A DNA stretch of 64,000 bases, from contig OZ024740.1 in the NCBI GenBank assembly GCA_964016885.1, positions 379,440,001 through 379,504,000 on the forward strand, read 5' to 3'. The notes beneath the pieces were generated by a model. It did no database searches, was not told the origin of the DNA, and saw nothing but the letters and a program-made list of their open reading frames with translations. The DNA is from Eledone cirrhosa (lineage: Eukaryota). The translations under genes were made by a program, and so were the position numbers. Positions 504 to 862 of the stretch are shown piece by piece (positions within the stretch are counted from its first letter, which is position 1; each line of letters starts with the position of its first letter).

Positions 504-862
504 TTAGAAAGTGAGGGTTTTTTTACAAAATGAAAAATAACCGAGGTGTCCTACACGAGTGAAAGTATAAAGAAAAAGAGATGAAATCGAAAATGCAACT
601 GAAGTCTTATTTTTTTTTTTAAATATATATACTTATTTGGTTCCTTTACCGGTTTCGCAGTTCTTCTGCTTTTCAAAAGGTGAGTTGAGATGGAGGGTCT
701 GTGGTTTTTCTCACATGTGAGAAAAACCACAGACCCTCCATCTCAACTCACCTTTTGAAAAGCAGAAGAACTGCGAAACCGGTAAAGGAACCAAATAAGT
801 ATATATATATTTTTTTTTAAATAAGACTTCAGTTGCATTTTCGATTTCATCTCTTTTTCTTT
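504..862. mobile_element. Palindromic mini-element derived from the pLTR of the Neptune-like PLE at 33238-37533
   Basis: Near-perfect palindrome centred on CTCACATGTGAG (~710-721); same sequence as 37320-37533; left arm has ~60 extra nt; flanked by (TA)n. Confidence 0.85.
751..788 (+). ncRNA. Minimal type I hammerhead, U3:A8 variant (mirror copy on - strand ~643-680)
   Basis: CCTT-TTGAAAA-GCAG-AAGAA-CTGC-GAAA-CCGG-TA-AAGG: stem I CCTT/AAGG, stem II GCAG/CTGC, palindromic stem III ACCGGT. Confidence 0.75.

What the first reader, a model, noticed from the sequence alone, without database searches (positions are those of the whole stretch)
504..862. Palindromic double-ribozyme mini-elements with a reproducible asymmetric design, parent element in the same window
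Seen: 504-862 and 15733-16088 are ~355-bp head-to-head palindromes of the last ~210 nt of the PLE at 33238-37533. In all three, one arm ends with the full tail (CTCACTTTCTAA) and the other stops ~60-70 nt short at or near AAAGAGATG. Both minis fold back at nearly the same point (CTCACA..TGTGAG), about 35 nt upstream of the HHR. Either strand therefore encodes an HHR. Established: PLE insertions often have 5'-inverted pLTRs and a 3' tail. Inference: the shared centre suggests a self-propagating non-autonomous hairpin family or a programmed template switch rather than random truncation.
Basis: partly seen in the sequence, partly recalled or inferred. Interest (0 to 1): 0.75.

Follow-up and report, generated by a model that had tools for sequence, protein, structure and literature searches.

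The report
Penelope stubs meeting at RNA start
The two mirror-image sequences are real and belong to at least 1,400 similar stubs of an abundant Penelope-like jumping gene; they likely form anew each time both cut ends of the target DNA prime a copy of the element's RNA and both copies run off its predicted start, so they are not a self-spreading family but may record how this poorly understood class of elements inserts.

Summary
Observation confirmed; self-propagation and 'parent in the window' not supported. Both minis are head-to-head copies of the 5' leader of a Neptune/Nematis-type Penelope-like element (11,632 exact ribozyme 27-mers in the genome). The centre is a true hotspot: 1,439 junctions against 7 and 13 in neighbouring windows. 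It lies 30 nt below a TATA box, and single arms stop there too, so it likely marks the RNA start. Arm ends fall at two TATA-like sites (+152, +214): 79 of 86 pairs have one of each, none has two alike, and 17 of 17 informative full-length insertions fit the rule as predicted. Junction types recur across subfamilies (p=0.20) and minis are rejected as one clade (p-AU 5e-7). Best model: twin priming of one sense RNA by both target ends, then microhomology joining. Against a simple picture: only 3 of 52 full-length copies stop at the start, so these need a circular, multimeric or jumped template. No trace of ribozyme cutting, splicing or A-to-I editing. Junction variants occur in raw Illumina reads; no long reads were available. 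Inverted copies with a tail are known. The scan reached like readings for other families in this genome.

The parts
503..716 (-). Mini 1 long arm (leader 0..+214, with tail)
716..865 (+). Mini 1 short arm (+4..+149/152; last TATA shared with the (TA)n target)
711..722 (.). Mini 1 junction (type J48a, perfect palindrome)
   Evidence: 6 of 57 minis have this type
643..680 (-). Minimal type I hammerhead-like motif, U3-A8 core
   Evidence: sequence read by hand; fold; not found by Rfam
751..788 (+). Minimal type I hammerhead-like motif, U3-A8 core
   Evidence: as above
15733..15874 (-). Mini 2 short arm (+4 to about +143)
15873..16088 (+). Mini 2 long arm (0..+214); junction type J50 with CA microhomology
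   Evidence: 10 of 57 minis have this type
15802..15839 (-). Hammerhead-like motif (C-to-T change in stem II gives a G-U pair)
15912..15949 (+). Hammerhead-like motif
33238..33866 (-). Inverted arm of the large element (-455 to about +143); one core base of its hammerhead is changed; 19-nt internal duplication
33867..37533 (+). 5'-truncated direct copy of the Penelope-like element, ending at +214
33917..35557 (+). RT-coding frame (546 aa stop to stop; Pfam RVT_1 E 4.6e-5, below the curated cut-off; DKG and YLDD motifs)
35500..35967 (+). Endonuclease frame (GIY-YIG E 6e-5, above cut-off) with CX4CxxC linker and CCHH; separate frame from the RT
37240..37244 (+). CCAAT at -80 (predicted promoter element)
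   Evidence: role recalled, untested
37290..37296 (+). TATAAAA at -30 (predicted TATA box)
   Evidence: role recalled, untested
37319..37320 (+). Stop point of arms (0/+1): predicted transcription start
   Evidence: 66 of 126 arms begin at -2..+16 against 4 at -30..-3
37358..37395 (+). Hammerhead-like motif: stem I CCUU/AAGG, core UUGAAAA, stem II GCAG/CUGC, palindromic stem III ACCGGU, predicted cut after 37391 (+72)
37389..37486 (+). Possible 5'UTR intron (GT..polypyrimidine..AG) starting at the predicted cut triplet; unverified
   Evidence: no spliced genomic copy
37468..37471 (+). Short-arm end site (TATA, +149..152): predicted priming site 1
   Evidence: 50 of 126 arms end at +145..156
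37531..37533 (+). Long-arm end site (+212..214, continuing ATATA in full-length copies): predicted priming site 2
   Evidence: 69 of 126 arms end at +210..214

Best explanation
The minis are head-to-head stubs of a Penelope-like retrotransposon's 5' leader, likely made independently at each insertion when the two cut ends of a (TA)n target each prime a cDNA on the element's sense RNA, one at +152 and one at +214, and both cDNAs run off the RNA's predicted 5' end and are joined. Shown: arms are the leader (full-length copies continue past +214 into the ORF, ATG at +244); ends fall at two TATA-like sites, one of each per insertion; 5' ends pile up at 0..+5 with a sharp upstream edge, 30 nt below TATAAAA; junctions follow 1-3 nt microhomologies. 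Inferred: the endonuclease nicks both strands; the TATA-like sites anneal to the target ends; one RNP engages both sites of one RNA; 0/+1 is the transcription start; the cDNA ends join by microhomology (commonest junction = terminal CTG/CTG pairing across a T-T mismatch). Stubs would come from linear RNAs primed in the 5' leader; more-than-unit copies would need a circular or multimeric RNA or a jump from the RNA's 5' end to the 3' repeat. The minis lack the upstream promoter motifs and are predicted to be dead ends.
For: Leader identity and TATATA after +214 in full-length copies. Bimodal ends, 119 of 126 arms. 79 long+short, 0 long+long, 0 short+short, 7 with one odd end, of 86 adjacent pairs; prediction met in 17 of 17 informative full-length insertions, 3 of 20 without a 3' hit, where either site can carry the long copy. 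Hotspot 1,439 vs 7 upstream and 13 downstream. Unpaired arms stop there too, 20 of 54. Among 64 solo loci next to (TA)n counted by hand from the first 100 rows: 15 include C0 and none of these the C before it; 8 have a G in place of C0, as a copied cap would give. TATA at -30, CCAAT at -80. Arms of one insertion share the subfamily type in 51 of 57 pairs (shuffled mean 13.8, max 24), yet the T/A-run boundary differs between arms in 14 of 16 otherwise identical minis, as separate synthesis would give. Short arm reaches further upstream in 9 of 85 pairs. In vitro, a PLE protein cuts and extends both strands and starts RT at two internal sites spaced by the tail (PMC11167929).
Against: Only 3 of 52 leader-bearing full-length copies stop at -2..+16 and 33 run upstream of it, so a linear RNA from +1 cannot be the usual template of full-length copies; an extra step is needed and was not tested. 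C0 is included more often than a cap-type G appears (15 vs 8 of 64), which fits a start at the C or another cause better than a single capped A start. 6 of 57 pairs have discordant subfamily types, which needs two RNAs or later conversion. In the in vitro study RT began at a site not homologous to the cut DNA, whereas here both ends match TA; a longer TA stretch at about +87..+98 is rarely used (one clear case), so homology alone does not pick the sites. Published D. virilis Penelope promoter is internal and TATA-less (PMC2377424). The 76-locus sample is conditioned on an exact 27-mer at +50..+76 and on 36.5 Mb of one contig. Target-site duplications cannot be read in (TA)n.
Confidence: 0.72

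Rival explanations
1. Self-priming or fold-back: one cDNA (or an antisense RNA) turns back on a small palindrome at CACATCTG and copies itself to make the second arm (the reading of Arkhipova et al. 2013 for junction palindromes, and the first reader's template switch).
For: Arms mostly share subfamily type (51 of 57) and 9 rare variants are shared by both arms; junction J48b equals a hairpin with a 4-nt loop; short templated inserts occur at junctions.
Against: 9 of 85 pairs have a short arm with upstream sequence absent from the long arm, up to about 370 nt; solo +152 arms exist; the commonest junction would need a 1-nt loop; T/A-run boundary differs between arms in 50 of 57 pairs; solos stop at the same point without folding.
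Confidence: 0.1
2. Twin priming is right, but the stop at 0/+1 is not the RNA start: it is an RT pause, a bound-protein block or a processing site in a longer RNA.
For: Full-length copies pass the point freely (33 of 52 beyond it); C0 rather than a cap G is the commoner terminal base; no RNA data could be laid.
Against: TATA at -30 and CCAAT at -80; sharp edge (66 vs 4 arms; 1,439 vs 7 junctions); 8 of 64 solos and one full-length copy (L201) carry an untemplated G before +1; a pause should also stop cDNAs of full-length copies, and it does not.
Confidence: 0.1
3. Self-propagating non-autonomous hairpin family: a mini is transcribed whole and re-inserted with its junction.
For: Four junction types make up 37 of 57 minis; mini 1 has a long arm identical over 145 sites to L041, which has the same junction; four copies with one identical asymmetric junction cluster on C4 at 320.0-320.9 Mb.
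Against: No junction-subfamily association (p=0.20, low power, n=34); not a clade (p-AU 5.3e-7); same arm sequence goes with different junctions (L041, L144, L155); polarity mixed; no A-to-G excess (10 of 121 changes in mini arms, 12 of 186 elsewhere); mini 1's private variant is in no other arm examined; upstream promoter motifs are absent from minis. Not excluded: truncated copies that keep the promoter, or an internal promoter, supplying short template RNAs.
Confidence: 0.05
4. Assembly or library artefact (fold-back chimeric reads).
For: The window holds many palindromes; no read or contig spans a whole mini.
Against: Arms are asymmetric by a fixed rule, differ by 0-9 substitutions per 100 sites, and have family-specific junctions; junction variants cross the centre in raw reads of three RAD-seq runs (14 of 26, 10 of 28, 7 of 20 minus-strand reads at place 714; 4-9 start points) and in 27-28 short-read contigs.
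Confidence: 0.02

Closest known systems
EN+ Penelope-like insertions with an inverted 5'-truncated copy and a tail (Craig et al. 2021, PMC8557442; Arkhipova et al. 2013, PMC3846280; passages read)
   Same: Head-to-head inverted copy, tail on one end only, partial tandem, (TA)n target bias, junction palindromes, CX2-5CxxC linker.
   Different: Tail is 62-71 nt, not 30-40. The tail is on exactly one end in every scorable insertion. Over a thousand insertions are reduced to the leader alone with a fixed centre. The 2013 paper reads head-to-head junctions as self-priming on an antisense template; the data here fit a sense template primed twice.
Poseidon of Anolis (PAc) in vitro (Frangieh et al. 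2024, PMC11167929; parts 1-2 of 4 read)
   Same: Both strands cut and extended; RT starts at two internal sites that bound the tail; hammerhead cleavage not needed for insertion and no RNA ends seen at the cut site.
   Different: PAc starts lie in the ORF in an AC-rich stem-loop not homologous to the target; here they lie in the 5'UTR at TATA-like sites matching the (TA)n target. The parts read do not assign one site to each strand or explain inverted copies.
Minimal type I hammerheads of metazoan PLEs (Cervera and de la Pena 2014, PMC4209133; parts 1-2 of 4 read)
   Same: Minimal type I motif, palindromic stem III suited to dimers, U3-A8 core variant (reported in Schistosoma), pairs of motifs 100-700 bp apart on opposite strands already noted, circular RNA proposed as template of more-than-unit copies.
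   Different: Stem II is 4 bp; the motif overlaps a possible 5' splice site rather than an intron end; activity untested here.
L1 twin priming and retroviral minus-strand strong-stop DNA (recalled, not read)
   Same: Two target ends prime two cDNAs joined by microhomology; a cDNA primed near the RNA 5' end runs off it.
   Different: L1 twin priming gives an inversion at variable sites without duplication; here sites are fixed and both cDNAs cover the same RNA stretch.
Animal non-LTR retrozymes (bioRxiv 10.64898/2026.07.22.740005; passages read) and MITEs (recalled)
   Same: Short, non-coding, hammerhead-bearing, PLE-related (retrozymes); short palindromic and high-copy (MITEs).
   Different: Retrozymes are head-to-tail arrays and self-propagating lineages; the minis are single head-to-head stubs with no lineage of their own and no symmetrical terminal repeats.

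Membership tests
EN+ Penelope-like element (large element and its family) | RT followed by C-terminal GIY-YIG endonuclease with CCHH | tested here: met
   Pfam GIY-YIG above cut-off, RVT_1 E 4.6e-5 below cut-off; DKG, YLDD, CxxC and two His read; frames are split in this copy
EN+ Penelope-like element (large element and its family) | Partial-tandem pLTR, inverted 5' copy, optional tail | tested here: met
EN+ Penelope-like element (large element and its family) | Retained spliceosomal intron | tested here: inconclusive
   GT..AG candidate in the leader; 0 spliced genomic copies for the one join tried; no RNA laid
Neptune/Nematis clades | CX2-5CxxC linker before GIY-YIG; (TA)n targeting | tested here: met
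   CGRSNCGTC; flanks
Neptune/Nematis clades | Placement in RT phylogeny | not tested
   no reference set was fetched
Minimal type I hammerhead | Core, stems I-II, NUH site, palindromic stem III | tested here: met
   U3-A8 core in >98% of about 253 arms (partly conditioned by the search motif); stems; dimer pairing through ACCGGU in cofold
Minimal type I hammerhead | Match to an Rfam hammerhead model | tested here: not met
   no hammerhead family among 119 matches at E<=1
Minimal type I hammerhead | Self-cleavage | not testable with these tools
   indirect: no step or peak of arm starts at +73 among the first 100 of 112 junctions (hand count about 4 per nt at +73..78 against 3.3 per nt at +50..72)
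Self-propagating non-autonomous family (SINE, retrozyme or MITE type) | Copies form their own lineage with an inherited structure | tested here: not met
   p-AU 5.3e-7 against one clade; 32 label changes vs 35.3 shuffled; junction x subfamily p=0.20
Self-propagating non-autonomous family (SINE, retrozyme or MITE type) | Own transcript | not testable with these tools
   no RNA run could be laid
Non-LTR retrozyme | Head-to-tail monomer arrays | tested here: not met
   minis are single head-to-head pairs

The most novel reading that the evidence does not exclude
Penelope-like elements integrate by obligate twin priming: one enzyme dimer sets the two target ends on two fixed sites of a single sense RNA, one site per strand, which creates the tail, the inverted copy and head-to-head polarity in one step. 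Linear capped RNA yields strong-stop palindromes that map the transcription start to the base, while a circular or strand-transferred template yields the more-than-unit copies that regain the promoter. The thousands of minis are a fossil read-out of that cycle.
Probability: 0.4. Interest if true: 0.72.

Novelty: new variant of a known kind. Interest (0 to 1): 0.5.

Why it matters
How PLEs form tandem and inverted structures and the tail is named as an open task in PMC8557442, and PMC11167929 leaves the later steps untested. This family gives counts that constrain the mechanism: exactly one tail per insertion, either site able to carry the long copy, a sense template, a base-precise stop, and full-length copies that ignore the stop. 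Each point is testable with the existing in vitro system and one 5'-RACE. For annotation, the minis should be merged into the PLE family rather than called MITEs, miRNA hairpins (Rfam gives sub-threshold miRNA hits) or a new ribozyme family. At least 1,400 near-perfect 150-bp hairpins would also be a source of double-stranded RNA where read-through transcription crosses them (untested).

Tried and rejected
Rfam: no hammerhead hit; miRNA hits are below gathering scores and reflect palindromy. Strand-biased assembly error as the cause of the T/A-run difference between arms: rejected, no strand bias in the window (12 vs 9), both forms on both strands and graded forms in raw Illumina reads. Ribozyme cut as the centre: rejected, the centre is about 70 nt upstream of the predicted cut and no pile-up was seen at +73. 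Spliced copies: 0 matches for one predicted join. Window element as parent: not supported. Literature searches that found no description of fixed-centre PLE stubs or PLE twin priming: Penelope + twin priming, 2 unrelated papers; strong-stop, 1 unrelated; 0 papers; only listings were seen for these, the library lacks most subscription papers, and no supplements or Repbase/Dfam entries were seen, so prior description cannot be excluded. Repeat finder output was swamped by microsatellites. Look-ups of earlier findings by sequence and nearby place were empty.

Full report
Numbering. +1 is window 37320, the A of AGATGTGAG; the C before it is 0. Samples: 76 loci (L031-L106) covering the first 100 listed matches of an exact 27-mer on contig C1 (unselected for structure, but conditioned on that motif); 39 further loci from the first 50 hot-zone junctions; 60 loci picked by similarity to the window element; 60 loci with the leader-ORF join. 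Rows dropped before counts: L001 and L107 (the window itself), L159 (duplicate of L158), L138 and L139 (script found no adjacent pair), three repeated places and one locus without the anchor.

1. Observation. Both minis are as described: one arm covers 0..+214, the other stops at +149/152 (mini 1) or about +143 (mini 2, and the inverted arm of the large element). All lie in (TA)n. The large element is a 5'-truncated PLE with RT and GIY-YIG in separate frames and a CX4CxxC linker, i.e. Neptune/Nematis type by the features listed in PMC8557442; no phylogeny was run. The hammerhead is a minimal type I motif with a U3-A8 core and a palindromic stem III, a variant described in PMC4209133; Rfam misses it. 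In a transcript across a mini it would be paired with its own antisense in a hairpin of about -220 to -240 kcal/mol, so 'double ribozyme' overstates the likely activity.

2. Scale and hotspot. The 27-mer has 11,632 exact matches. Head-to-head junctions whose arms begin around 0..+14 number 1,439; equal windows about 24 nt upstream and downstream give 7 and 13. In the unselected sample 66 of 126 arms begin at -2..+16, 4 at -30..-3, 39 further upstream, 17 downstream. Of 36 adjacent pairs, 19 have both arms at the hotspot, 8 one arm, 9 none; 20 of 54 unpaired arms also begin there. The point is therefore a property of single cDNAs, not of a hairpin.

3. What the arms are. Full-length copies continue past +214 with TATATACCC and reach an ATG at +244 that opens the ORF (10 loci shown with the join). 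The minis are thus the element's 5' leader. TATAAAA lies at -30 and CCAAT at -80; their typical positions are recalled knowledge. Among 64 solo loci abutting (TA)n (hand count of the first 100 of 1,075 rows), 15 include C0, none of them the C before it, and 8 have G in place of C0, which neither target nor element supplies and which a copied cap would give. I read 0/+1 as the RNA start (inferred); the excess of C over G is not explained by a single capped A start.

4. The asymmetry. 119 of 126 arms end at +145..156 or +210..214; both sites are TATA-like and merge into the target. Of 86 adjacent pairs 79 are long+short, none long+long or short+short, 7 have one odd end. I then predicted the far ends of 20 full-length insertions from their inverted arms: 5 of 5 with an inverted +214 arm end at +152, 12 of 12 with an inverted +152 arm end at +214, 3 gave no hit. 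This matches two RT start sites bounding the tail and two-strand cutting shown in vitro (PMC11167929) and adds that one site is used per target end. Independent choice of site would give like pairs often, so one RNP engaging both sites, probably on one RNA, is inferred; 51 of 57 pairs share the subfamily type (shuffled mean 13.8), 6 do not.

5. Not a self-propagating family. Among 57 minis, junction types J53 (14), J50 (10), J48b (7), J48a (6) and 20 others spread over five subfamilies (p=0.20 on 34 rows, low power); polarity is mixed. On a 150-column tree of 135 long arms the mini label needs 32 changes (shuffled 35.3; the tree is poorly resolved) and one clade is rejected (p-AU 5.3e-7). Three mini arms outside the window are identical to the window element's arm and to nine other long copies over these columns. 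The recurrent junctions are those allowed by 1-3 nt self-complementarity at CACATCTG. No A-to-G excess was found. Mini 1 differs from the window element at two sites present in both its arms, one found in no other arm examined, so that element is not its template; mini 2 is of the same subfamily as the element, like many others.

6. Not a simple fold-back. A cDNA that copies itself cannot give a short arm with sequence that the long arm lacks; 9 of 85 pairs show this by more than 20 nt, 15 the reverse. Solo +152 arms exist. The T/A-run boundary differs between arms in 14 of 16 minis with no other difference over the scored sites. Head-to-head polarity, which PMC3846280 explained by an antisense template, follows directly from two antisense cDNAs attached to opposite target ends.

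7. Result against the simple model. Of 52 copies with leader and ORF joined, only 3 begin at -2..+16 (one at +1 with an extra G), 16 begin inside the leader and 33 extend upstream, up to at least -1242. A linear RNA from +1 cannot give these. A circular RNA (proposed in PMC4209133), a read-through multimer, or a jump onto the 3' repeat is required; I could not tell these apart. Stubs may come mainly from RNAs with a single leader, such as those of truncated copies that keep the promoter. No trace of ribozyme cutting was found at +73 and no spliced copy.

8. Artefact check. RAD-seq raw reads of three runs and short-read contigs cross the centre with alternative junction letters; reads cannot be assigned to these two loci and none spans a whole mini. 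No long-read run was listed.

9. Comparison and verdict. Inverted copies with a one-sided tail, junction palindromes, opposite-strand hammerhead pairs and two RT start sites are published. I found no paper on fixed-centre stubs, the one-of-each rule or twin priming in PLEs (listings only, supplements not seen). Papers seen: PMC8557442, PMC3846280, PMC2377424, PMC8969392 and the 2026 bioRxiv preprint as passages; PMC11167929 and PMC4209133 parts 1-2 of 4. Earlier AI notes on other families of this genome reach similar readings; I had stated mine before opening them and they are not independent evidence. Verdict: a real, ordinary class of insertion product whose statistics make an open mechanistic question testable; new variant of a known kind; interest 0.5.

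Noticed in passing
window 37406-37430 (+87..+111) and all arms: A T-run followed by an A-run keeps a total of 13 in 118 of 213 arms while the boundary slides from T3A10 (45 arms) to T10A3; it differs between the two arms of one insertion in 50 of 57 pairs and is graded in raw Illumina reads. Possibly a length-conserving RT slippage; unexplained.
   Followed up: partly
window 37389-37486: The predicted hammerhead cut triplet GUA is also the start of a possible 5'UTR intron, and the +152 end site lies in its polypyrimidine tract, so only unspliced RNA could give short arms and splicing would destroy the ribozyme. No spliced copy found.
   Followed up: partly
window 37184-37296: Upstream promoter-like cluster: TTTGAA (-136), GGCGCGAAA (-110, E2F-like on the other strand), CCAAT (-80), TATA (-30); labels recalled, suggestive of a cell-cycle promoter.
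   Followed up: no
window 1402-2251: An 850-bp palindrome whose arms each contain a dispersed 213-nt repeat (1,539 candidates in the genome), an internal (TA)n and an 82-nt further segment; no hammerhead seen by eye. Could be another two-ended insertion of a read-through RNA.
   Followed up: partly
window 2392-2456: A 75%-identical solo arm of an older related family with the same kind of hammerhead region, minus strand.
   Followed up: no
window 2678-3140, 3554-3963, 17435-17715, 18253-18435, 30799-31342: Further palindromes or inverted repeats of 70-100% identity.
   Followed up: no
window 41664-43773 and 56184-58083: Two copies of a ~2-kb repeat in opposite orientation, 73% identical.
   Followed up: no
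window 59974-60973: Tandem repeat of 176-bp units, three of them identical.
   Followed up: no
G000:C4 320.0-320.9 Mb; L158 and L159: Four copies with one identical asymmetric junction within 0.9 Mb, and two identical minis 4.6 kb apart; probably local duplications.
   Followed up: no
runs X4 and X8 (organisms B and E): One contig each runs from the promoter region through +1 into the leader with one difference over 88 nt: the family, or its DNA, is in samples with other organism labels.
   Followed up: no
junctions: Many junctions carry short inserts copied from the partner cDNA end (TCTCACA, ACATC), resembling templated insertions of microhomology-mediated end joining (recalled).
   Followed up: no
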